Shown here in pieces: positions 345 through 36,769 of a stretch of DNA of 41,949 bases (position 1 is its first letter; the number at the start of each line of letters is the position of its first letter). The notes under the pieces are model-generated. The model did no database searches, was not told the DNA's origin, and saw nothing but the letters and a program-made list of their open reading frames with translations. The position numbers were made by a program, and so were the translations under genes. Location: NCBI RefSeq assembly GCF_001186125.1, contig NW_014040450.1, forward strand, positions 81,609 through 123,557, in the 5' to 3' direction. The stretch is from Sphaeroforma arctica JP610 (taxonomy: Eukaryota).

Positions 345-1244
345 CTACATGATGTACCGCTGGTGGTATTGTTTTGCGGCTTCTTCTTCGCACATTTCTT
401 CAGATTCTTCCTCCAGAGATAAGAAAGCTTCAAACGACCCTAGTGTGTCTACACCGGCGACAACAAAGCCCTTCGACTTCCGGACATTCCATTCGTCCTT
501 AATTTCTTCCGAATCCAGCGAAGAGTTTGCATTGAACTCTTCAAGATCAGCAAAATTGGCATCACTTTTCTTGTCGCTTCTACTGATGAAACTGTCATTA
601 GTAGGAACATCTGTGACCGTATGAATGGGTACTGTGTCGCCAATTCTCTTGGGGAATTTAATGTCATTCACACGATCAGTGCCTCGAGAAGCGTCGCCGA
701 TCCTGAGCAAAAACTCTCTAATTGAATCCTCTCGGGGGCCAAATTTTACGACAGAATGATACTCAGTTTCGGTCTGAGCATCACTCGCCTTCAAATCTCT
801 TTTCTTGTCACCTCTGCTGCTGAAACTGTTACTAGCGGGAGCATCTTCGACTGTACGGATAGGTCCTGTGTCGCCAATCTTTACTGGGAGTTTACTGCCA
901 TTCAAAAAATCAGTGCCTTGGGAACCGTCGCCGATCCTATCCAGATATTCAGTGCTGGGAATGCCGTTGTCATGGCCGAAATCTACGATTGTATGGTCCC
1001 GTACTTTACGAACAAATTCTGCCTGGAGATCTCTGCCACCTGTGCCTTGGGTGACATTGTCAACTTTAATCTCGATAAGAGTAACAGTTTCGTATGTTAC
1101 GGCCGTGTCGATTGGAGAAAAAACCCGTCTAATGGCTCTGTTAATACGCATCCGATTTTGTCTGTTCACAATTGATTTTTGCGCTGCTAGTACCACTGCG
1201 ACAAAGGCCGCGAGGACTAAGAAGTACTGCATAGTAGAGTTCAT
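345..1244 (-). CDS. Intronless 299-aa predicted secreted protein with two ~66-aa internal repeats and an acidic C-terminus; function unknown
   Basis: Long ORF with a signal-peptide-like N-terminus ([17 protein letters not shown]). aa 84-150 and aa 163-228 are repeats of each other (RIGD..RIGD..SRxDKK). A TATATAA lies upstream at 1305-1311. Confidence 0.75.
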
Positions 1245-1304
1245 GCTAGTTGAAATTGTTTCGCTATTGTATGAGTGATTTCATTTATGAACTTTTTTTC
1301 TTCA

Positions 1305-2472: not shown

Positions 2473-3065
2473 TAACAACTTTATAGGTTAATATTTAAAA
2501 TATGATACTATTTACGAGCGTAAGTATGCATACATTGTGCTAGATTGACAGAAAACACAAATTTGAACATTAATAGGGCATGCTTCACATTGTACGGCAC
2601 TATTACCACAATATTGCATTGGTCATACAAGCATTGATATGGGGTGTACTTATTTTATTGTACAGTTATCAACGAAGACTCCATTACCTAAGCTAAGCTT
2701 ATTTAGATGTAGAACCTCTCACCAGTATGTTCGGCATATAGTGTAGCTACTCACGCGAGAGTAAATATACACAATATAATCGAAGGAGATTGAGTGATGT
2801 ACACCACTGCTGATACTACTTCCGATAGTAACACAGGCATCAATTGGATGTCATCTAATGAATTAAAATTAAAATTCGCTGGGTCATAGATTTCACAGTC
2901 ACAGATAGCAAACGGCACATTACATATGAACTTTGTTACTAACGCTTCGATGGGAAAAATGGACTTCGTCATATGATTTCCCGTAGCCATTGCATGGTTT
3001 AAATTGTGCATGGGTGTGCAAATTCATAGGGAAGGAAACGTGAACAAGTATTTATAGGTACTTAC

Positions 3066-3629
3066 GGTAATCGCTCCGTGCATCTCGGGCGAACCCCAGA
3101 TACGTCCTTCACTACACTGTGTCAACGCTCTGAGCTCCGGAACCTGGATGAGAAATACGATCCGTAGTTAGCAGACAGACTTTATTGTAGGTGATGCAGC
3201 TAGAAATAAACAGCTATAATCTGATAAGCATCAGGGATACTACTTCGTATACAAAATGCATGTGTTTCTTATTTAAAACCGAATAGTAGAACTGTATGTA
3301 CACAAAAACACATAAAACCATGCGAATACCACCGAGTTTCTGTAATCAGTACGAGAGAGACATTACGATGCCACCTACCTTGAGAGTTTCTGCAATTAGT
3401 ACGAGAGAGACATTACGATGCCACCTACCTTGAGAAATTTCTCTAGGGTAGGATCACGCACAGGCAGCCTACTCGGGTTGAAGATACGTACATCACAATC
3501 CATGCGCTTAAGCAAACGTGCAGTCTCATACGCACATTTACGGGCAAAACTACTCTCGCGCAAAGATCCGTACAAGACTAAAATCCTGGGCTTGTGTTCT
3601 ATTGTTGCTCCTGAGAAATGCATAGCCAT
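3066..3629 (-). pseudogene. arsH: ArsH-like (NADPH-dependent FMN reductase, arsenic resistance family) gene; two exons 3629-3429 and 3143-3066; C-terminal half not found
   Basis: Exon 1 encodes HKPRILVLYGSLRESSFARKCAYETARLL...VRIFNPSRLP, then AAG|GTAGGT. Exon 2, after CAG|, encodes VPELRALTQCSEGRIWGSPEMHGAIT, then |GTAAGT. These match the ArsH motifs ILxLYGSLR and ELR..WSEG.VW.SPE.HGA. I found no IDWIPL, RPTQG or GRWMR exon downstream by eye. Confidence 0.75.
3334..3435. repeat. 50-bp tandem duplication that includes the arsH exon-1 donor site
   Basis: The unit occurs at 3334 and 3384. On the - strand both copies contain TCTCAAG|GTAGGT. Confidence 0.9.
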
Positions 3630-3695
3630 ATTGGTGAAAAGATTCTGGGATAAGAACGAAGCGAAAAACTCGTATTTTGTGCAATACGGCATACT

Positions 3696-3703
3696 TATTT
3701 ATA
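3696..3703 (-). promoter_or_regulatory. Candidate TATA box of the arsH-like gene
   Basis: TATAAATA on the - strand ~67 nt upstream of ATG 3629. This argues that the ORF-track start at 3692 is not the real start. Confidence 0.4.
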
Positions 3704-7700: not shown

Positions 7701-10063
7701 TTTTCACTATTGGTGAGGAGCACTGCATCACCACTACTACACCCATACACAACGTAGCCTTTAGACCACTCTTTAACTATATAACTGACACACCCTTAAC
7801 TATATAACTGACACACTCTTTAACTATATAACTGACACACTCTTTAACTATACAACTGACACACTCTTGGATAGTAGTTTCATGGCGAATGTGAGCATCC
7901 AAGATTAGAAGCATACTCAAATGGTCCCCATGTAGCCGTTGGCAGCTTCTCTGTGTAGTGTTTATGCTGTGAGTATGGGATAATGAACCCGTCGACAGAC
8001 ATGTGTATGTCGATTAAAACACGCTCACATGCTGCCAGCTGTAGAATCAACGGCGATGTTGCAACTCACAACCGGTGCCTACTACCTCTACCAACTGTGT
8101 CACTAACTGTGTCACTAACTGTGTCACTAACTGTGTCACTAACTGTGTCACCAACTGTGTCACCAACTGTGTCACCAACTTTGTCACTAACTGTGTCACT
8201 AACTATGTCATTAACTGTGTCACCAACTGTGTCACTAACTATGTCACTAACTGTGTCACCAACTGTGTCACTAACTGTGTCACTAACTGTGTCACTAATA
8301 ACTGTGTCACTAACTGTGTCACTAACTGTGTCACTAACTGTGTCACCAACTGTGTCAGGTGCGAGTCAGTTGGAGGAGTACTGTGAGAAGGCGATCAAGT
8401 GCAGCACACTGGGCCACAATGTGGATATCCGTGTGCAGTCTATGGTGTTGTTAGCCGAAACCTATTACCAGACCGATAGGCCGGATGAGGCTAAGGCAAT
8501 GGTATGGTATTGTATGGTATGGGATTGTATGGCATGGTATTGTATGGTATTGTATGGTATGGTTCCCATGGGTGAGCAGATGTTACGCGGATGCATTTGT
8601 TGCTGTAGGGTGTGTATGGTGGCAGGCTAGACTATATAGGTGTGTCAGGAGGTGAAGACTTGACCCACACGAGTACAGCGCTGTGGATGGATACCATGCT
8701 CAACGCATATCACCACAATATATCTACAATGTACACGCACGCTCTGACCAGCAAGTATGGGAGCATCACTGGAAGTATGTATATGAACGCCTGCTTTAGT
8801 TCTGATAGGCCCCTATCGAAGGGGATCACAGGGTAACGTACCACAAAAACACGCGGAGACGCAACACCGGATGTGAAGTACACCACACCGACCAGAGCAC
8901 ACACTCATTGTACATCGCAACGTCTTCATCACAGAGCTTACATCACAATGTTGTCACCACAACGGCTTCATCACAGAGTTTACATCACAATGTACTCACC
9001 ACAACGGCTCCAACACAGAATTTACATCACAATGTTGTCACCACAACGGCTTCATCACAGAGTTTACATCACAATGTACTCACAACAACGGCTTCATCAC
9101 AGAGTTTGCATCACAATGTTCTCACCACAACTGCTTCATCACAATGTTCACATCACAATGTTGTCACCACAATGGCTTCATCACAGAGTTTACATCACAA
9201 TGTACTCACTGCAACTGCTTCATCACAATGTTCACATCACAACTAGTTTGAGGATGCTTTGGAGCCTGCGCGGACAATCAAGGACAGCGCAGTCAGAAGT
9301 CTGCAGATGGTGGGTCATGTAAAGTATATTCTCTCGTGTCCTCCCACAACCGTTGTAGCCACAGGATTCTCTATGCAGCATGAGTTGATATGTTATGTAT
9401 TGTACTCCATGTTGTTTGAGCTGCCGTAATGCTACGCTGTTCTATCCAGCACATCGGCTGTGTGCACATTATGCTAAAACCCTGAACCCTTAAATCTAAC
9501 CCCTAAACCCTAAAACTCTAAACCCTAAATCCCTCAAACACTTGGTATGTTGCCTTCACTGTAACCTCGAGGCTCATGTTTATTTACTACTTAGTCCCTC
9601 AATGTGTTCAGATATGCATACAGTTTGATTTCTTTGTTTCTGTAGTACAAGTCGCGACTGTACGCGTGTGCTGCGCTGAGGTGAGACTTAGTTGGGTGCA
9701 TCAATAGAAAACTGTATCTGTGTTGGTTTATTAGGTCTGTGTTGGCCCACTGAGTCTGTACTGTTCCGCTGGGTCTGTGCCGGTGTTGCTACTTGACACT
9801 CACTCTCAGGCTTGCAATGACAAACAACTTCCAGAGTGTGGACTACCTCCTCATACTATTCTCTTCGAAACGCTTTTGGCGAACAAACAGAACGAATCCG
9901 TTCGTTTCCCCCCACCCCCACTACCCCATGAGAGTACCTCAGACCTATCATACTCATGCACATTGCTATACCGGTCGGGTATTGGGGGTGTTCGTATCGT
10001 CTCGACTGCGGCACTCTGGTGCTGATTTTTGCTCACCTTGCCTTACTTTAAACTAACATCTCT

Positions 10064-13100: not shown

Positions 13101-16100
13101 ATATCATTGGTGTGTAGGTACATGCAACATGTCACACCCCCCATCTGACACCACTCTCTCCACTTCCGCAACCATCTTATTGCTGTGTAGGTGCATGCAA
13201 CATGTCACACCCCCCCATCTGACACCACTCTCTCCACTTCCTGTGCCATCTTATTGCTGTGTAGGTACATGCAACATGTCACACCCCCCATCTGACACCA
13301 CTCTCTCCACTTCCTCTGCCGTCTCATTGCTGTGTAGGTACGGTGACATGCTGGCTAGCATGGACGATGACGAACACAAGGAAATCGCTCTGGAGCACTA
13401 CAGCGCAGCCATTGCGCTGCTGAAGGCAATGGACTCCAAATGGCTGTCAGAAGACGAGCGCCTGTCGCATCTGCACGATATGTACACGAGTGCTATCATG
13501 ACTCACTGCGAATTGGAGGTGCGTACGTGAACGTGTGAGGGGGTAGTATACGTTGGAACATGAACGTGTGAGTGGATTTGATTCATTGCAACGTGAACGT
13601 GTGAGGGGGTTTAATTCACTGTCACGTGAACGTGTGAGCACTGTTGGATCGCTGTGAATAGCCAAGTACTCACGGTACGTTGTGTCACGTGAGTGTTTCT
13701 GCACTTCTTTGGACTTTATGCTGTCACTCGTATTTTGTTAATATTAATATTTATATATATATTGACACGCTGCAGCAATATGTGGAGGGGCTCATGCTGC
13801 TGCAAAAAAACAAAGCGCTGCAGAAGGGACGGCCGGCGGAGGCGTCCGTGTATCTGTTTGAAGCAACGCTCCTTCAACATGTAAGTGGACCTTCGCTTGC
13901 GTATATATATTTATATATATATATATATAACGCTCCTTCAACATGTGAATGGTCCTACACTTGCGTACTTCACTTGCGCACATCCCACGGTGGACTGTCG
14001 TGCTCTCGCATTCAGATGAGAATGCGATCAGGGTTCAGTACAGCCTAACCTCTAAACCCCAAACCCTAAACCACCGACCCTAAACCCTAAACCTTAAACC
14101 CCGTTTATTTCTTGCGTATGAGCCTGTCATACTACTAGGCGTGAGTGGCAGTGGAGTATTATGTGGCAGACAGTACGGATCGGTGCAACAACAGACTGTC
14201 AGGCTCAGTTGAAAATCAGGAGAGAAATCCTTGTGTGTGGGAAATCGGGGGAAAAGTGCCAAATATGTGGGACAGTTGAAACATAAATATCGTTATTTGT
14301 ATTATGGAGGAGAAGGTACCCCTATGTGGATGAACCCCCCTAAACCCTAGAACCCTAGGAGATAAGTGCCTGGTTGTTGCCGACTGAGAACATGATCCGC
14401 GAATTGGCCTCTTATAATATATCCTTTGCACCACACAACGGTCCAACAAATGCATCGCAACACACCTCACCGCCTCTCAGCCACCACGTGGTCTCATGTA
14501 CTGTATCTTTAAACGCATCTCAGCCACCACGTGGTCTCATGTACTGTATCTTTAAACGCATCTCAGCCACCACGTGGTCTCATGTACTGTATCTTTAAAC
14601 GCATCTCAGCCACCACGTAATCTCATGTACTGTATCTTTAAATACATCTCAGCCACCACGTGGTCTCATGTACTGTATCTTCGGTGTCACAGAATGATCC
14701 CACACACTCGTCGCAATTGTCTCTGGAGAAGATTGCCCAGTCCAGGCAGCGTGCTATGGAGCTGGCAAAGGAGTACGATATCGAGGTGGGTGCGCCGTCT
14801 GGCTGTGATAGACATAGTTCGGGTGTGGTACATTGCATGCGTGGTTTATGTTGTGTGTCTATGTGCTTATGGTTTGACATGTTAGTGCATGAGGTCCGGT
14901 TGTGCAGGATTGTATGTGCACATTTTGCACAGACAGTTGCAACTGGCGGTATGTATCCGTATACATCATTTCTACATGTGTGTGGTATGCATAGATGATT
15001 GCTGGGTGGAAAGAACAGGCAAGTCCAGGAAGTGTTATCGTACGAAAGTAAATGGGAGATCGATTGTGAGCCTATAACTACATAATTATTTATTTACATA
15101 TTCAAACAGTGCTATTCTGGAGTATCTCTACGCACCTATGAACTTGTCCGTATAAACTGTGCATGGCGTTGGCAGCATCCTCAAGGCCTTATTACCTACA
15201 GAACGACTCAGCATGTGTAGTGGATGGCTTGTGTGATGTAAACGTGCACATGATACGCACAACACAATCATCAGTACGTCCACCCCATACGCGCGACATG
15301 AACCCGACAGATAGTAGATACACGTGCGACATGTACGTGTTGGTAGCCATATCAGATGCGAATGGAGATATAGACCGCCGCAAAGCACTCGAACAAAGAT
15401 ATAAAGGCCCCATTAATGGCCGACCTTGCAGTGTCTTTGGCGTACTGGTAGCTGTATCTGTGCATATCTCACTTTGCCTCGCAGTCTGTGAGAGAGAAGT
15501 CGTGCTGCCATATCGGCTTGTGTGTCCAATCGGTAAACTTGGTTTATACACCATGGCACAGCAAGCCAAGTGTCGTTGATGGTGCTAGTCACTCTACTTG
15601 TTTATTGGGGGTTTTGTTTGTAATCCTAATTTGGCCCCCTGTTTTTTTTAGTTTTCTGGCCCTTTTTTCGGGGTGGCTGGCCAATATTTCGATTTGTTAT
15701 GTCGTGTGGCGCTCACCTATAGTAGAAGTTTGCGACCACACATGCGCCATAGCTTACAAACCAATCCTTGCGTCTGATTCTATTTTTATCTCCATACCCG
15801 ACACTGCTGTGTACTGTAGGAGGAGATGGAGGATCCGATGTTCGATACAGCGAGCAATGAAATAAACGTAGGTGACCCTTCCGCATCACGCTATAGCCTA
15901 TATGTTGATGTATGGGATCCTTCCGCATCACGCTATAGCCTATATGTTGATGTATGGGATCCTAACGAATCACGCTATAGCCTATATGTTGATGTATGGG
16001 ATCTTAACGAATCACGCTATAGCCTATATGTTGATGTATGGGATCCTAACGAATCACGCTATAGCCTATATGTTGATGCGTGGGATCCTATACGGACAAC

Positions 16101-31602: not shown

Positions 31603-34600
31603 CATACAGTAGTCTAAGTGTCGCTAGTGCCCGTGTTCTTTGGTAGCGTGTTTGTGATTAGAAGTGTATTCTTGTGCCATCACCAGCAATCATCTCGTTG
31701 CTAGTGAATTTTGGCGCTTGACATTCTAGTCTGTACTGCAAAGTAAAGGACTCCTGTGGCAGAGTCTCCTATATTATGTATCGAAGACCACATACGGACA
31801 CTGTGCTCCAAGCGTCCACCGTGTATTGGTGCGACAGTACTTCTAAAGTATGAGGATGGGTTATTATTGAAAGCTTCAACACTCCAGTACGTCCACGCAG
31901 GAGAGGGTTTACTGTCACTCTCCTCATGGGGCACTCGGCAGACACTCTCCGATAGACAAACCGCCCACCACTCGCATGTACCATATGTAGTCTGACCGAA
32001 ACTCGCAACCATCGCGTCGGTATATTCTCCTGTCTCATATACTTCTATGCTCGTAGCAGATTCAACGCCTTAGGCTGGACAGCAACTTCTTAAGCAACCG
32101 CACACTGTCACACCTGAGCACCCCGCTGGTATCAACAGTACGCCAATCGCTGCAAGAGATTGGTCTCAGCGGCAACGCAGAGATCACTGTGGTTGCGATA
32201 GGTATGTGTTCGATGTTGTTCCGAGAACGCGCGTCCGTACTTCTGTAGTAAAGCACTACAGTACTTTTTTTAAGGCACTACGTTACTCATATACTCATAT
32301 GAGCAAAGTATTACTTCTGTAATTCTGCAGATACATGTGTACGTGAGTGGGGTGTTGGTGACAATGTAGTGTACAATGCTTGCAGGAGGTGTCTCTTGAA
32401 GAAGTACGCAAGATGTGTTCCATTTATTGCGTATGCATGGAGTATTATTTTTACACCCGAGCTTGCGAGCTAGATGCCAAGGGTTGCCATCCACTGCTGA
32501 TTGCTCTTGCAGTCGATTTGCATCTTGTCGCAGTGGACTTGCTAGGGGCTCGTGAGGCTATTATAGAGGCCTTGTGGTTGCTAGGGATTCATGAGGCTAC
32601 TATAGAGGCCTTGCAGTTGCTAGAGACTCGTGAGGTTATTATAGAGGCCTTGTGGTTGCTAGGGACTCGTGAGACTATTAAAGAGGCCTTGTGGTTGCTA
32701 GGGACTCGTGAGGCTATTGTAGAGGCCTTGTAGTTTTGCTAGGGACTCGTGAGGCTAATATAGAGGCCTTGTGGTTGCTAGGGACTTGTGAGGCTATTAT
32801 AGAGGACTTGCGGTTGCTAGGGACTCGTGAGGTTATTATAGAGGACTTGCGGTTGCTAGGGACTCGTAAGGTTATTGTAGAGGCCTTGCGGTTGCTAGGG
32901 ACTCGTGAGACTATTATAGAGGCCTTGTGGTTGCTAGGGACTCGTGAGACTATTGTAGAGACCTTGCGGTTGCTAGGGACTCGTGAGACTATTATAGAGG
33001 CCTTGTGGTTGCTAGGGACTCGTGAGACTATTATAGAGGCCTTGTAGTTGCTAGGGACTCGTGAGGCTATTATAGAGGCCTTTCGGTTGCTAGGGACTCG
33101 TGAGGCTATTGTAGTGACCTTGCGGTTGCTATTGGCTCAGTTGGACTAACATGTACGGGCTGTCGGTGCTTGTCGTTGCGTATGGTATATAGCCATGTGC
33201 ACGCGCTCTCCTTAGCACTTGGGTTGATGCTTGCCGTAGTATGACTGTTCTATCTGATCTACTACATGTGCGCTGGCTAAGTCATAAAGCTACTTTGTTG
33301 GTACACCCATGCTAATATACTTACCCCTATTGCACCACAGTGAAACTCATCCGGTCATTTGATGGCGGATGTCCGCTGACTGTTCTCTCAGATGGCGTTG
33401 GCTCCAGTTCGCACGCCGCAGCCGTATCGCCAACTGTCGACCCTCTGAGCCACAACTCACCAACCGACGCGTGTTTATCGCCGTCTCTCATTGGTCACAC
33501 GCGTACCGCTATACCAGCCGATGTACACGTGTCTCTCAGAGGCGTGCACCTCACAGACGAGAGTCTGAGGACTCTGTTGGACGCTGTGGCATCAGGTGGG
33601 TGTGTATGTTTAGTACCGTTCGGCACGGTGTGGGAAATGGTTTATCTAGGTCGTAGGCTTGTTGGTTAACTAAGTTGTTGGGTATATTCAAAGGTGCGAG
33701 TCCAGCAGTTGAGGTCTTGCTCAGTATAAGTGTGCGGGCATTGCTTGGCGACTCTTTGTTCTGTGCGTTATGCTTTGCCTCTATGAGTTGTTGTATGGAT
33801 ACTCATACAGCAGCTGTTGACCTGATCTTTGGGTGTGTGTGGCGGCGCCGATTGAGCCAAGTGCACTACGCACACACATCCGACTATGAATACAATACCT
33901 CGCAGAGGCCCAGAATACTAGTACACCCGTAGATACTATGGCGTGAAGTCACCGGTGACTGAAATATGAGAAAAAAAAACTGAATATGTATGCAATACGT
34001 CACAAAAGCACAGAATACTAGCACACCCGTAGCTATTGTGGCACGAAGTCACCGGTGACTAAAATAGGGCATATGCCGTTGTTAAGGACTTTTATACGGC
34101 GAGAATCTAAGACATGTTTATATATATATATGTGTGAGAGTGTGTGTGTGTGTGTGTGTGTATCTACGACATATACTAATTCTGATGTATATGTGCAGGG
34201 TTTGTGATACGCCTCAATCTGTCGCACGCTGTTCTGCCCGGCAGTGGTCTAGCAAGTGTGCTCCAGGCAGCGGTGGCGACGTCAAGGTGAGTATGTTTGT
34301 ATGTGAGCATGCTACTATACAATCCAGTAGTAGACCATTGTGTGCGGCCCTGTGTGGTGACTGTGTCGCGGTACTGGCTAACTGAATTTGGCCGGCTGTA
34401 TTCTGGTACAGTGAGACTTGAGCCTTTGGACTGCTGCGTTTGTCACACAAAGTAAAAATAAACTACGAGTGTTTGTACAAAAAACGGCTATAGTACGCAA
34501 AGTATCCTCTCTACCGTCCCGTAGTCTAAGATCCATCGCGCTTTGCCTGTGTTGCCCTTTGCGAGTTGGGGTCCTAACCCGTTGATCGTACTATACATAG

Positions 34601-35180
34601 CCGGCTTGAGCAGCTCGATTTGTCACACCATGTCATCTCCGATGCCGACATTGCACCACTCCAGTACTGTGTAAAGGCAGTGTGTGATGGGCATAGTGTG
34701 CTGACGAAGTTGGATTTGTCCTTTGCGACCCGATTAGGCCCTTGTGACGGGTATGTGGTGCGACCAATTTCCGATTATTGGTTCGTCTACTTTCGGGTGC
34801 CTTACACTTTGGTCCCGTCTATGGACAGGTGTACTGTGTATCTGCATGGCTCACTTCTTTGTGGTTGGTGCCTGTGTTCTTGAATTCGACTAGTAGTCCT
34901 GTTAAATTATCTTTGTCTCGATTTGCGGAAGAATTTGGAAACGACCATGTATCTACCTTTTCACATACATAGCAGTTGCACACAAACTAGGAACACGCTC
35001 GTTGTCATTGCATTGATCGGTGCTTCTTGGTTCGGCCATTCATAGCATACTGATTTTACATGTTTTACTGATAGGATCGACGAGCTTCTCATCGCCCACG
35101 ACAAGCTGGCCAGCCTTGAAATAGTTGCCAGGGGTATGCGAATGGGACGTCAAACAGTCCCCTTACAGGCCGGAGCGTGA
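4451..35180 (+). CDS. TONSL: Tonsoku-like protein (TPR - ankyrin repeat domain - low-complexity linker - UBL - LRR), 31 exons, ~1,912 aa
   Basis: Hand-built exons, all GT-AG with matching phases: 4451-4716, 6155-6268, 7289-7515, 8359-8501, 9247-9309, 10130-10255, 11523-11656, 13338-13518, 13776-13880, 14693-14785, 15820-15867, 16550-16624, 17042-17113, 18058-18224, 18815-18887, 20872-20955, 21659-21876, 22911-23033, 23406-23583, 24333-25797, 26398-26569, 27083-27267, 28053-28232, 28987-29117, 29814-30094, 31300-31393, 32060-32201, 33341-33595, 34199-34286, 34601-34750, 35075-35180 (TGA). Total is 5,739 nt. Domain order and motifs ([76 protein letters not shown]) match animal TONSL as I recall it. 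Individual boundaries may be wrong and small exons may be missed. Confidence 0.88.
4791..4810. other. Assembly gap (20 N) after a (TATG)n/(TA)n microsatellite
   Basis: N run. Confidence 1.
5542..5790. repeat. Intronic tandem repeat, 92 bp, ~2.6 copies
   Basis: TAGCATCACTGTG at 5542, 5634 and 5726. Confidence 0.9.
6253..6538. repeat. 31-bp minisatellite, ~9 copies, starting inside TONSL exon 2 and repeating its donor site
   Basis: Unit ATGTGTACCTGGACAG|GTAGGATATATCTTT. Confidence 0.95.
7768..7868. repeat. ~24-bp minisatellite, ~4 copies
   Basis: Unit CACTCTTTAACTATATAACTGACA. Confidence 0.85.
8091..8357. repeat. 12-bp minisatellite, ~22 copies, abutting the exon-4 acceptor
   Basis: Unit AACTGTGTCACT/C; the last copy ends TGTCAG|. 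Confidence 0.95.
8910..9242. repeat. ~42-bp minisatellite, ~8 copies, abutting the exon-5 acceptor
   Basis: Unit ACATCACAATGTTGTCACCACAACGGCTTCATCACAGAGTTT. Confidence 0.9.
10336..10740. repeat. 52-bp minisatellite, ~8 copies
   Basis: CGAAGT.CACACTGTGCT... at 10336, 10388, 10440 and onward. Confidence 0.95.
11195..11521. repeat. 33-bp C-rich minisatellite, ~10 copies, abutting the exon-7 acceptor
   Basis: Unit CCCCCTATCACACCCCTCTCAACCACCAATCCA; the last copy ends CTGTCGCAG|. Confidence 0.95.
11700..12220. repeat. Degenerate GT-rich tandem repeat (TAGTGCTAATGGG...TAGAGTGTG core, ~6 copies)
   Basis: The core motif recurs at ~90-bp spacing. Confidence 0.8.
12489..12762. repeat. 140-bp tandem duplication
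   Basis: GTTCTAGTACTGTGTGCATGTAA at 12489 and 12629. Confidence 0.9.
13050..13341. repeat. 73-74-bp minisatellite, 4 copies, each containing a copy of the exon-8 acceptor
   Basis: TGTGTAG|GT with the AG ending at 13117, 13190, 13264 and 13337. Confidence 0.9.
14473..14681. repeat. 43-bp minisatellite, ~5 copies, just before the exon-10 acceptor
   Basis: Unit TCTCAGCCACCACGTGGTCTCATGTACTGTATCTTTAAACGCA. Confidence 0.95.
15868..16228. repeat. 42-bp minisatellite starting at the exon-11 donor
   Basis: Unit GTATGGGATCCTAACGAATCACGCTATAGCCTATATGTTGAT. Confidence 0.95.
16860..17005. repeat. ~45-bp AT-rich minisatellite, ~3 copies
   Basis: CATAGTATTA...TATAATATCAGAGCAAT repeated. Confidence 0.85.
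17126..17686. repeat. ~40-bp minisatellite, ~14 copies, beginning 12 nt after the exon-13 donor
   Basis: Unit GCATCTAAGTATCCGTTAAAGTCCTCAATTTCTATTGGAAT. Confidence 0.95.
17895..18055. repeat. 56-bp minisatellite, ~3 copies, abutting the exon-14 acceptor
   Basis: ACCGTAT.CGTACACATATATAATCC at 17950 and 18006; the last copy ends CACGCACAG|. Confidence 0.9.
18900..20000. repeat. Complex GT/TC-rich repeat plus (TA)n/(GT)n/(TATG)n microsatellites
   Basis: Visible low-complexity tracts at 18900-19510 and 19750-20000. Confidence 0.85.
20360..20792. repeat. 73-bp minisatellite, ~6 copies
   Basis: ATTATCTACCACCTATATCCCAGTATATATGATATCTCCACCCCCAGTAGACAT...CACAGATCTA repeated. Confidence 0.95.
20961..21259. 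repeat. 59-bp minisatellite, 5 copies, beginning 5 nt after the exon-16 donor
   Basis: CGTGTACG.CTTTTGTTGAACCG at 20961, 21020 and onward. Confidence 0.95.
21996..22130. repeat. 29-bp minisatellite, ~4 copies
   Basis: Unit GCGTGGCTGTGTGTGGGATCAAAGCATGC. Confidence 0.9.
23995..24303. repeat. 29-bp minisatellite, ~10 copies, before the exon-20 acceptor
   Basis: CAGTATAA at 24002, 24031, 24060 and onward. Confidence 0.95.
24333..25797 (+). other. TONSL: TONSL 1,465-nt low-complexity exon (S/G/H/R/T-rich disordered linker, NLS-like RRKKRR)
   Basis: The ORF-track 483-aa ORF covers it. It has a CAGCAG acceptor and a G|GTGTGT donor, both in phase with the flanking exons. Confidence 0.75.
25891..25910. 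other. Assembly gap (20 N) next to microsatellites
   Basis: N run. Confidence 1.
26398..28232 (+). other. TONSL: TONSL ubiquitin-like domain region (exons 21-23)
   Basis: LALRVRI...[23 protein letters not shown]...[17 protein letters not shown] resembles the TONSL UBL and the following SW-x-x-P-L-x-x-x-Y segment. Confidence 0.65.
29814..35180 (+). other. TONSL: TONSL C-terminal RI-type leucine-rich repeats (exons 25-31)
   Basis: LRR motifs [87 protein letters not shown]. Confidence 0.85.
32535..33130. repeat. 39-bp minisatellite, ~15 copies
   Basis: Unit TTGCTAGGGACTCGTGAGGCTATTATAGAGGCCTTGTGG. Confidence 0.95.
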
Positions 35181-35342
35181 AAGTAGGTTCCCATAAACTT
35201 AATCCATAGTAACTTAGTAAATAAATTTAGAATATAAAGTCTCGCGAAGTATTTTACAGTTTACTGTGCCCGCCTTTTAATAGGCTTAGATGTGTGGCAA
35301 TACCCGTTTGTGTCATCTGAGTTTCGACTCTGGTTGTGAATT

Positions 35343-35431
35343 CCGCAATATCTTCGGATGCGCAGGTTCGAGTCCTGCACCTGTCATAAAATTTGCAGGT
35401 TGGCCGAGTGGTCTAAGGCGTTGTGTTTAGG
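35343..35431 (+). tRNA. Circularly permuted tRNA-Leu(UAG): 3' half 35343-35386, 7-nt spacer, 5' half 35394-35431
   Basis: 3' half: C-CGCAA-T-ATC-TTCG-GAT-GC-GCAGG-TTCGAGT-CCTGC-ACCTGTC-A. 5' half: TGCAGGT-TG-GCCGAGTGGTCTAAGGC-G-TTGTG-TT-TAG-G. Rejoined they give an 82-nt type II cloverleaf with a U1:C72 mismatch. Leader and trailer pair into a BHB-like motif. Confidence 0.75.
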
Positions 35432-35441
35432 AAACAATCAA

Positions 35442-35451
35442 TTTTTTTTTT
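35442..35451 (+). terminator. Pol III oligo-T terminator of the permuted tRNA-Leu
   Basis: T10 run 10 nt after G37 of the 5' half. Confidence 0.7.
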
Positions 35452-35465
35452 GGGGGGGGGGGAAT

Positions 35466-35625
35466 GTTATAGGAGTCATATCATAGCCTTCTGAATTATA
35501 CAGTAATAGGAGCCATATCATAGCCTTCTGAATTATACAGTAATAGGAGCCATATCATAGCCTTCTGAATTATACAGTTATAGGAGTCATATCATAGCCT
35601 TCTGAATTTAATATACAGTTATTGG
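35466..35625. repeat. 37-bp minisatellite, ~4 copies, between the two tRNA genes
   Basis: Unit TAATAGGAGCCATATCATAGCCTTCTGAATTATACAG. Confidence 0.95.
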
Positions 35626-35962
35626 GGTATACCGCCTGTATCAGTCGTTCTGAGCGTCGCATATTGCGAAATGCATATTTTTAGCTTTGTCTTAGTGAAA
35701 GGCTCTAAAGTAGACAATACTCACCTCCGTATTAAAGAATTTGTTCGCAGACTTATCAGTAATACACCTCGAAGTTTGCTGCTGTAATCTGAAGTAAATA
35801 AACGAGTTCATTGGATACACTGACAGCAAAGATTGTACCTTGACCTAATTGCTGTAATGAAACTTTTTTATAAACTCAACAATTATAATATCATGTTGTA
35901 TAGCATTTCTGAATTAGACACTATTATTTACTTACATCCCCTTAAGTAAACTCACTAAAAAA

Positions 35963-36033
35963 TCTCCAACACGGGAATCGAACCCATGGCAGATGAATGG
36001 AAATCATCTATGTTACCACTACACCAGTTGGAC
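35963..36033 (-). tRNA. tRNA-Gly(UCC), 71 nt, intronless, with a G1:G72 mismatch
   Basis: GTCCAAC-TG-GTGT-AGTGGTA-ACAT-A-GATGA-TTTCCAT-TCATC-TGCC-ATGGG-TTCGATT-CCCGT-GTTGGAG-A, followed directly by T6 (35957-35962). Confidence 0.85.
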
Positions 36034-36769
36034 ACTCTTACTGTATAAATAGCTCTATCAATTACTAAAAATAAAATAGTTTTATTCACTATCGCTCGCA
36101 TATGTTTATTTATTAGGAAAATAGTAATACATGCGATCCTCCTCACATACCAACGTCCTAAAATTGACTATGTAAATATTATTAATATACTTTCATTACA
36201 TCATTCTTAGCCTGAGTAATACTTGCAACTATTCCCCATAAAGTCCTCCTCTTGCTGCCAAGTCCCACGTCCTTCACGTCCATTTCATAGGGGCGCGTCC
36301 GATTCGCCTCGAAAACCGGCACCGGGAGCCTCGGTTTTCTTGGCCAAATCTGACCATTACTTGTTCGACAAGCCGCACATTGTTATAACTCCAAAAAATG
36401 ACCAATTGTTAAAAATCAGTTATATGTGCACGGATCGTGAATATTCTTAGAAACTACGAAATGAAGTAGCAGAAGTATAGTACATCAGGGAATGGAGAGA
36501 TGAACTCGGCCTAATAATAGTATAGAACCGATTATATACATGTGTGAACGGCTGAACACTTAGACTTCCATGAAACATTATAGTAGACGACTGAATCAGG
36601 ATATCAGCCTTTGAACACTAAAGTAGAACAATTGGATTAGTTCTTCAATAGTAAACTAAGTGTATGGTCTACTACAACGAAGCTCTAGCCACAGATACTA
36701 GACTACAACTAAGTGTCTCGATTGATTTAATAACCTTCTTTTTTTTCGATTTGACCTACTAACTCCAGA

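What the first reader, a model, noticed from the sequence alone, without database searches (positions are those of the whole stretch)
35331..35451. Circularly permuted tRNA-Leu(UAG) gene with a BHB-like junction at position 37/38
Seen in sequence: the tRNA 3' half (35343-35386; anticodon-stem 3' strand, UUCG variable arm, T arm, acceptor 3' strand, A73) lies upstream of the 5' half (35394-35431). The halves are separated by TAAAATT and followed by T10. They complement each other: the anticodon stem is TTGTG/CGCAA and the acceptor has 6 of 7 pairs. The break falls at the canonical intron site 37/38. Leader TGAA (35337-35340) pairs with positions 32-35 TTTA to form a 4-bp central helix. TT|C38 forms a 3-nt bulge. 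Leader TGGTTG (35331-35336) pairs with trailer CAATCA (35435-35440) as an outer helix; the second bulge is 5 nt, so the BHB is relaxed. Established knowledge: this layout matches permuted tRNAs that mature through a circular intermediate (splicing endonuclease and ligase, then RNase P and tRNase Z) in Cyanidioschyzon merolae, prasinophytes, Bigelowiella and Thermofilum. Inference: I know of no report in an opisthokont-like genome, which this appears to be, and standard tRNA scans would likely miss it.
Basis: partly seen in the sequence, partly recalled or inferred. Interest (0 to 1): 0.93.

Follow-up and report, generated by a model that had tools for sequence, protein, structure and literature searches.

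The report
Swapped-halves leucine tRNA genes in Sphaeroforma
A single-celled relative of animals carries several leucine tRNA genes whose back half is written before their front half, a layout I found reported only from algae and one archaeon, and they are likely cut and re-joined into working tRNAs.

Summary
A tRNA-Leu(UAG) 3' half (35343-35386) precedes its 5' half (35394-35431), which is followed by T10. Rearranged, the halves give an 82-nt cloverleaf with the eukaryotic leucine identity set. The host is the ichthyosporean Sphaeroforma arctica: the adjacent Tonsoku-like gene matches 100%. The locus is one of a dispersed family. Contigs of five genomic runs from five studies span the swapped order, with at least seven upstream contexts and variable linkers. 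One paralog carries three two-sided compensatory changes. No contig listed joins the halves in normal order, so misassembly and tandem-array remnant are unlikely. Pair 1-72 is mismatched in every copy I could read; this may be tolerated or repaired after transcription. My literature searches found no permuted tRNA in an opisthokont. The scan earlier noted one in diatoms, and I found others in a bolidophyte-like alga.

The parts
35275..35282 (+). AT-rich TATA-like element, candidate upstream Pol III promoter (inferred, weak)
   Evidence: Sequence. It lies about 30 nt before 35313, where two paralogs begin to match (table 7). It is 61-68 nt upstream of the 3' half, beyond the 50 bp noted for C. 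merolae.
35313..35330 (+). Likely 5' part of the leader, with a 4-bp TTCG-loop hairpin at 35319-35330
   Evidence: Pair probabilities 0.82-0.96. Two paralog contigs per run match from 35313. Another paralog's flank has a 4-bp hairpin with a changed closing pair and loop at about the same place (X19 loose end).
35331..35342 (+). Leader (intron-3'-like): outer helix strand 35331-35337, and A35340 placed for the anticodon-intron pair with U32
   Evidence: Paralogs with unrelated upstream DNA begin to match at 35331-35333. A-I pair definition from PMC10275265.
35343..35386 (+). tRNA-Leu 3' half, positions 38-73: anticodon-stem 3' strand, UUCG variable arm, T arm (B box), acceptor 3' strand, A73
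35387..35393 (+). 7-nt intervening sequence closing the acceptor stem; the most variable part among paralogs
   Evidence: Differences listed at 35387, 35388, 35389, 35390, 35392 and 35393
35394..35431 (+). tRNA-Leu 5' half, positions 1-37: acceptor 5' strand (U1 unpaired with C72), D arm (A box), anticodon stem 5' strand, U33, anticodon UAG at 35428-35430, G37
35432..35441 (+). Trailer (intron-5'-like) that pairs with the leader
35442..35451 (+). T10, likely RNA polymerase III terminator; no run of four T lies between 35313 and 35441
   Evidence: The paralog trailers listed also reach a T run within about 10 nt (table 7).

Best explanation
This is one copy of a dispersed family of circularly permuted tRNA-Leu genes in the nucleus of the ichthyosporean Sphaeroforma arctica, likely transcribed by RNA polymerase III as one precursor and likely spliced at position 37/38 into a working tRNA. 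Shown: the swapped order, the family, the cloverleaf, the leucine identity bases and the T run. Inferred from the algal pathway: (1) transcription starts near 35313-35330 and ends at T10; (2) the halves fold as a tRNA body with the acceptor closed by the 7-nt linker, and leader and trailer clamp the anticodon stem like the two ends of an intron; (3) the tRNA splicing endonuclease cuts after G37 and before C38, guided by the mature domain and the U32-A35340 pair, and a ligase joins G37 to C38, giving a circle; (4) RNase P and tRNase Z remove the linker and CCA is added. The unpaired U1.C72 is either tolerated or repaired afterwards (untested). The family likely arose within this lineage by tandem duplication of an intron-bearing gene, loss of the outer exons, and later dispersal.
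For: Rearranged halves score as tRNA-Leu(tag). A73, C3-G70, A4-U69, G5-C68, the long variable arm and U8:A14, the eukaryotic Leu identity set in Table 1 of PMC9976931, are all present; so are G18, G37, U55, G2, G30, C61 and C62, which matter in yeast tRNA-Leu(UAG). The host is fixed by P0005 (100% identity; named S. arctica JP610, Tonsoku-like), and one contig runs from that gene into the 3' half with 0 differences (X10 record 1, 34165-35360). Contigs spanning 3' half, linker and 5' half are listed in 5 of 5 genomic-looking runs from 5 studies (X1, X5, X10, X12, X16). In X1, six contigs leave the match upstream at four places, besides this locus's own flank, so there are at least 7 contexts. 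One paralog (X1 record 8, X5 24, X10 8, X12 16, X16 13) changes G6-C67 to U-A and U7-A66 to G-C, and G49-C65 to A-U (A49 read from the X16 loose end only). It has a different but still hairpin-forming variable arm and keeps pairs 3-70, 4-69, 5-68 and A73 (my reading of tables 3, 4 and 7). All downstream loose ends listed reach a T run within about 10 nt, and none continues into a 3' half. No joint and no letters-between row links 35431 to 35343 in any of 8 runs laid. The 7-nt linker and 37/38 junction match type II in Soma 2014, Table 1.
Against: No RNA evidence for the precursor, the circle or the mature tRNA was obtained. U1.C72 is unpaired here and in the compensated paralog, and A1.C72 in another copy (X1 record 6). 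At least one copy is clearly decayed (X1 record 2: 18 other letters, A58 and A73 changed, a 6-nt insertion), so copies can be dead. ViennaRNA does not favour the 4-bp central helix, although it also misfolds the mature tRNA (cloverleaf -20.7 against MFE -29.7 kcal/mol). With the B box before the A box, the promoter is unexplained and the TATA-like element is weak. One contig carries the 5' half from position 7 on behind unrelated DNA (loose end before 35400, X10 and X12); it could be a fragment or a conventional gene. Tables 7 and 8 were cut (27 and 80 pieces and 6 loose ends hidden; 5 loose ends dropped), so a conventional copy is not excluded.
Confidence: 0.76

Rival explanations
1. The copies are a tRNA-derived repeat or pseudogene family, amplified from one accidental rearrangement and not made into tRNA; conventional genes elsewhere supply Leu(UAG).
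For: Many dispersed copies, at least one decayed, and a 1-72 mismatch in all copies read. No RNA contig shows the mature join. One contig has a 5' half without the 3' half upstream.
Against: Two-sided compensatory changes that spare the Leu identity pairs. Variation concentrated in the linker. Leader kept from 35331-35333 while flanks differ. A T run after each trailer listed. No normal-order copy listed in 5 genomic runs at 80% likeness.
Confidence: 0.11
2. The locus is transcribed but stays unspliced as a YrlA-like tRNA mimic, with a closed acceptor loop and a leader-trailer stem, and has a non-translational role.
For: YrlA RNAs have this topology (10.1101/312249, passages). The leader-trailer helix is the strongest predicted feature, and the BHB helix is not favoured. 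An open 1-72 pair would not matter to a mimic.
Against: YrlA lacks the anticodon loop, whereas here U33, UAG and G37 are intact, the break is exactly at 37/38, an A-I pair is in register, and the Leu identity set is kept in a diverged paralog.
Confidence: 0.07
3. The genes are functional, but maturation avoids a circle: RNase P and tRNase Z open the linker first, giving a two-piece pre-tRNA held by its stems, which is then spliced at 37/38.
For: Soma 2014 notes that the order of steps should depend on where the enzymes sit in the cell. One RNA-run contig from a paralog ends exactly at A73 (X19 record 17); this is a single study and contigs cannot show ends, so it is at most a weak hint.
Against: Circular intermediates retaining the linker were found in both red and green algae.
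Confidence: 0.04
4. Misassembly, or two truncated neighbours of a tandem array of ordinary intron-containing tRNA-Leu genes.
For: The locus is repeated and sits next to low-complexity runs, and no single contig listed spans the whole stretch.
Against: The window holds no further half (best other hits 10-11 nt, E 0.23 or above). Upstream flanks listed contain no 5' half and trailers end in T runs. The swapped junction is bridged by contigs in 5 studies, including paralogs anchored in 1-7 kb of other DNA.
Confidence: 0.02

Closest known systems
Type II (37/38) circularly permuted tRNA genes of Cyanidioschyzon merolae, Ostreococcus, Micromonas and the Bigelowiella natans nucleomorph (Soma 2014, PMC3978253, parts 1-4 of 11 and passages read); permuted genes also in Auxenochlorella (PMC12633428, passages)
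   Same: 3' half before 5' half, junction at 37/38, short linker (7 nt; known range 1-74), leader-trailer pairing, downstream T run, and a class II tRNA, the class that review says is most often permuted. Known Leu cases are CAG and TAA.
   Different: The host is an opisthokont with a large, repeat-rich genome. The gene is a dispersed family with at least two sequence types and decayed copies, whereas Table 1 lists one gene per anticodon except two for Gly(CCC). Leu(UAG) is not in Table 1. The 1-72 pair is unpaired.
Permuted tRNA-Leu(UAG) and Leu(AAG) found here in marine metagenome contigs of a Triparma-like bolidophyte (L007, L010, L011, L013-L016, L018)
   Same: Same type II layout, 6-nt linker, T run right after the anticodon.
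   Different: Fully paired acceptor and a short variable arm. Identity to the window's tRNA is only 65-69% by MAFFT, with different acceptor, T stem and variable arm, so there is no sign of transfer from these algae.
YrlA bacterial Y RNAs (10.1101/312249, passages)
   Same: T arm, closed acceptor stem, then D arm, with the ends paired as the anticodon stem.
   Different: YrlA has no anticodon loop and is bacterial; here the anticodon and the splice register are intact.
Mitochondrial tRNA 5'-editing by Thg1-like proteins (PMC4284800, passages)
   Same: A genome-encoded mismatch at the top of the acceptor stem.
   Different: These are nuclear genes. That 2014 review says end editing is not known for nuclear-encoded tRNAs except G-1 of tRNA-His. 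Editing is not shown here.

Membership tests
Type II circularly permuted tRNA gene | 3' half upstream of 5' half with a short intervening sequence | tested here: met
   bridged by contigs in 5 of 5 genomic runs
Type II circularly permuted tRNA gene | Halves rejoin into a cloverleaf with conserved tRNA bases | tested here: met
   ARAGORN tRNA-Leu(tag), 82 nt; the one defect is U1.C72
Type II circularly permuted tRNA gene | Junction at 37/38 in a BHB or BHL motif | tested here: inconclusive
   Junction position and A-I pair are in register and the outer helix is strong, but the central 4-bp helix has probability below 0.01 in ViennaRNA
Type II circularly permuted tRNA gene | Pol III T run after the 5' half and none inside | tested here: met
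   T10 at 35442; T runs in the paralog trailers listed
Type II circularly permuted tRNA gene | TATA-like element within 50 bp upstream of the 3' half | tested here: inconclusive
   AT-rich element at 35275-35282 lies 61-68 nt upstream
Type II circularly permuted tRNA gene | Expressed via a circular intermediate into an aminoacylated tRNA | not testable with these tools
   All runs offered were contigs; no small-RNA or raw-read run was listed
Eukaryotic cytosolic tRNA-Leu | A73, C3-G70, A4-U69, G5-C68, large variable region, U8:A14 | tested here: met
   against PMC9976931 Table 1
YrlA tRNA mimic | Closed-loop acceptor stem with T arm before D arm | tested here: met
YrlA tRNA mimic | No anticodon loop | tested here: not met
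   U32, U33, UAG and G37 are present
YrlA tRNA mimic | Ro60-binding stem and a linked Ro60 gene | not tested
   No genome is held
5'-edited tRNA (Thg1-like repair) | Encoded mismatch at acceptor positions 1-3 | tested here: met
   U1.C72 here and in one paralog; A1.C72 in another
5'-edited tRNA (Thg1-like repair) | Changed 5' base in the mature RNA, and a Thg1-like protein in the host | not testable with these tools
   No mature tRNA reads and no genome

The most novel reading that the evidence does not exclude
Sphaeroforma arctica encodes its tRNA-Leu(UAG), and at least one more Leu type, only as multi-copy permuted genes, and replaces the mismatched first base after RNase P cleavage by templated 3'-to-5' addition. 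That would be the first permuted tRNA family in an opisthokont and the first 5' editing of a nuclear tRNA other than tRNA-His.
Probability: 0.15. Interest if true: 0.92.

Novelty: new variant of a known kind. Interest (0 to 1): 0.72.

Why it matters
Permuted tRNA genes have been tied to algae and one archaeon, and explained by unusual splicing endonucleases and TATA-only transcription in compact genomes. A conserved, expanded family in a relative of animals would show that opisthokont-type tRNA machinery can also make them, and probably that they arise repeatedly. It would let one test in a cultured organism how Pol III transcribes a gene whose B box precedes its A box, and whether a circle forms. 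It also means that standard tRNA scans undercount tRNA genes in protists: ARAGORN and Rfam both missed this one.

Tried and rejected
No whole genome is held, so no genome-wide tRNA census was possible. The run search listed no holder on record as RNA; this is no evidence on expression. Of three RNA-looking runs laid, X18 and X20 had no contig on the tRNA, and X19 had two contigs in all, one on a paralog's leader and 3' half. Contigs cannot show absence, so this is not counted either way. Summed contig depth rises from 46 to about 2600-3400 over the halves in X1; the tool says this is no copy number, so I counted flanks instead. A Sphaeroforma-type motif found 0 hits in viral contigs and 0 in prokaryote genomes, and the strict permuted-Leu pattern found 0 in viral contigs. 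Of 14 metagenome hits, 6 were ordinary tandem tRNAs in tRNA clusters and none looked ichthyosporean. Of 5 viral hits to the loose pattern, 3 were tandem tRNAs. Transfer from algae was considered and is not supported. The FMN-reductase ORF gave 4 unnamed hits and did not identify the host. The protein atlas did not answer. The sigma-70 scan is irrelevant to a Pol III gene. Using the neighbouring tRNA-Gly mismatch (G1.G72) as support for general 5' editing was rejected: the Gly consensus is G1-C72, so there the odd base is 72, not 1. Literature: 'permuted tRNA' (74 papers, 40 listed; from 2016, 41 papers, 37 listed); Sphaeroforma+tRNA+permuted 0; permuted+tRNA+ichthyospor 3, none on this by title; circularly permuted+tRNA genes+opisthokont 1, on organelle 5S rRNA; Sphaeroforma+tRNAscan 2, unrelated by title; Sphaeroforma+Thg1 0; Ichthyosporea+tRNA genes 20, none on this by title. 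Those lists were seen as titles and abstract starts only. Subscription papers and genome-paper supplements were not searched and could hold a mention.

Full report
Observation. The letters and coordinates are as reported. In genomic order neither ARAGORN nor Rfam sees a tRNA here; both report only tRNA-Gly(UCC) at 35962-36034 on the minus strand. With the halves swapped, ARAGORN draws an 82-nt tRNA-Leu(tag): five-pair anticodon stem, U33-UAG-G37, UUCG variable arm, standard T arm, and six of seven acceptor pairs with U1.C72 open. A pattern of B box, A box, anticodon and T run in that order matches once in the window and in 0 of 100 shuffles. The window holds no other piece of either half longer than 11 nt.

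Host. The long intron-rich gene ending just upstream has TPR, ankyrin and a weak LRR match. Its first exon is 100% identical to P0005, named by its sources as a Tonsoku-like protein of Sphaeroforma arctica JP610 (1 hit among 194 candidates; sequence). The species is filed under Opisthokonta, Ichthyosporea. Two RNA runs splice its last exons at GT..AG introns and their contigs stop at 35187 and 35238, before the tRNA. One genomic contig runs from 34165 to 35360 with no difference, which ties the leader and the start of the 3' half to this nuclear gene.

A family, not an accident. I laid 8 of the 24 runs listed. Five behave as genomic DNA (X1, X5, X10, X12, X16) and come from five studies; any one may be the window's source. 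All five list contigs that cross from the 3' half through the linker into the 5' half. In X1, of 34 contigs laid, six leave the match upstream at four places (35313 twice, 35331 twice, 35332, 35333), besides this locus's own flank, so there are at least seven contexts. None of the 30-letter flanks shown is a 5' half. The downstream loose ends shown (behind 35426, 35433 and 35434) all reach a T run within about 10 nt. No joint from 35431 back to 35343 and no letters-between row was listed in any run, so no normal-order copy, with or without an intron, was seen at 80% likeness. The tables were cut, and one contig (X10, X12) carries the 5' half from position 7 behind unrelated DNA, so a conventional gene is not excluded.

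Selection on tRNA structure. Reading tables 3, 4 and 7 by contig depth gives the following. One paralog, seen in all five genomic runs, changes G6-C67 to U-A and U7-A66 to G-C; with the A49 seen in the X16 loose end, it also changes G49-C65 to A-U. It has another variable-arm hairpin and another linker, and three further differences near contig ends that the tool does not list, so its anticodon is unknown (at most one difference lies in 35425-35432). It keeps C3-G70, A4-U69, G5-C68 and A73, which with the long arm and U8:A14 are the eukaryotic leucine determinants in Table 1 of PMC9976931 (passages). Other copies differ mostly in the linker. One copy is decayed (18 other letters, a 6-nt insertion, A58 and A73 changed), and one has a G49.G65 mismatch. 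This mix of constrained and decayed copies is what an ordinary multi-copy tRNA family looks like (inference).

The junction. The break is at 37/38. Eukaryotic endonucleases use the mature domain, a distance rule and a pair between U/C32 and the third-last intron base, within a relaxed bulge-helix-loop (PMC10275265, passages). A35340 sits in that register. Against this, ViennaRNA with the cloverleaf enforced gives the central pairs under 1% and prefers a 7-bp outer helix, and the region's z-score is -1.19. The same program misfolds the mature tRNA, so this is weak evidence, but I call the motif a relaxed BHL with a firm outer clamp, not a demonstrated BHB.

Mechanism. By analogy with the algal pathway (Soma 2014, PMC3978253, parts 1-4 of 11 and passages): one Pol III transcript from leader to T run; cleavage after G37 and before C38; ligation to a circle; removal of the linker by RNase P and tRNase Z; CCA addition. 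All of these steps are inferred here. The promoter is open, since B box precedes A box; an AT-rich element at 35275-35282 is a weak candidate. The review's origin model, tandem duplication of an intron-containing gene with loss of the outer exons, fits a leader and trailer that look like the two ends of an intron.

The open first pair. Position 1 is U here and in the compensated paralog, and A in another copy, always opposite C72, while G2 shows no listed change. Three outcomes are possible: an open 1-72 pair is tolerated; RNase P cuts one base in, so that G starts the tRNA; or the base is replaced by templated 3'-to-5' addition. A 2014 review says end editing is not known for nuclear tRNAs beyond tRNA-His (PMC4284800, passages). 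The neighbouring tRNA-Gly also has a 1-72 mismatch (G.G), but there base 72 departs from the Gly consensus, so it does not support general 5' editing.

Comparison and novelty. Soma 2014 lists 34 permuted genes from red and green algae, a nucleomorph and Thermofilum. Auxenochlorella was added later (PMC12633428, passages), and a 2026 review limited to photosynthetic lineages still names algae and archaea (PMC13578239, passages). My searches gave no opisthokont case; they miss most subscription journals and all supplements. The scan's earlier notes hold nothing on this genome or sequence but mention a permuted tRNA-Ile in diatoms (unchecked). My one metagenome scan gave 14 loci, of which 8 are type II permuted Leu genes in three sequence types. 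The FtsZ beside one of them has Triparma proteins as its nearest named hits (85-90%). These algal tRNAs are 65-69% identical to the window's and share no acceptor, T stem or variable arm with it, so independent origin is more likely than transfer (inference; no tree was built). Permuted tRNAs thus seem more widespread than published, which lowers the surprise a little, but an expanded family in a relative of animals is a real extension.

Verdict. The feature is real; most likely a functional permuted tRNA-Leu family (0.76, or 0.80 counting the non-circular route). It is a new variant of a known kind; interest 0.72. Expression and the fate of position 1 are the open tests.

Noticed in passing
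L007, L010, L014; L011, L016, L018; L013, L015: Type II permuted tRNA-Leu(UAG) and Leu(AAG) genes with 6-nt linkers and T runs in marine metagenome contigs. L010's FtsZ is nearest to Triparma (Bolidophyceae), a lineage not in the permuted-tRNA lists I read. The host of the other contigs was not checked.
   Followed up: partly
L001:1400-1590 and L002:1400-1580: In giant-virus tRNA clusters, a tRNA-like element in permuted order (T arm, closed acceptor-like stem, Leu-type D arm) with no anticodon, clamped by the same 8-bp inverted repeat in both contigs. It resembles a YrlA-like mimic.
   Followed up: no
window 35962-36034 (-): Conventional tRNA-Gly(UCC) with a G1.G72 mismatch and a T run right after it, 500 nt from the permuted gene.
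   Followed up: partly
run X19, record 17, laid on 35331-35386: A 1198-nt RNA-run contig from a paralog locus ends exactly at the discriminator A73. It may be a long transcript cut by tRNase Z; one study only, and contigs cannot show ends.
   Followed up: no
window 35319-35330: A small leader hairpin directly before the outer helix. By eye, short hairpins with other sequences lie at about the same place in three paralog flanks (table 7).
   Followed up: partly
window 4451-35238 (+): Tonsoku-like gene (1910 aa, P0005) spread over about 31 kb, with introns full of minisatellites and TTTAGGG-type repeats (9477-9539, 14044-14102).
   Followed up: partly
window 3396-3698 (-): Fragment of an NADPH-dependent FMN reductase (PF03358), cut by a 50-bp tandem duplication at 3334-3435. 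It may be a broken or intron-split gene; 4 unnamed hits.
   Followed up: partly
window 345-1280 (-): 311-aa ORF with a signal-peptide-like start and an internal repeat, without a Pfam match.
   Followed up: no
window 35452-35608: A G run and a 37-bp tandem repeat (3.8 copies) start right after the T10 terminator.
   Followed up: no
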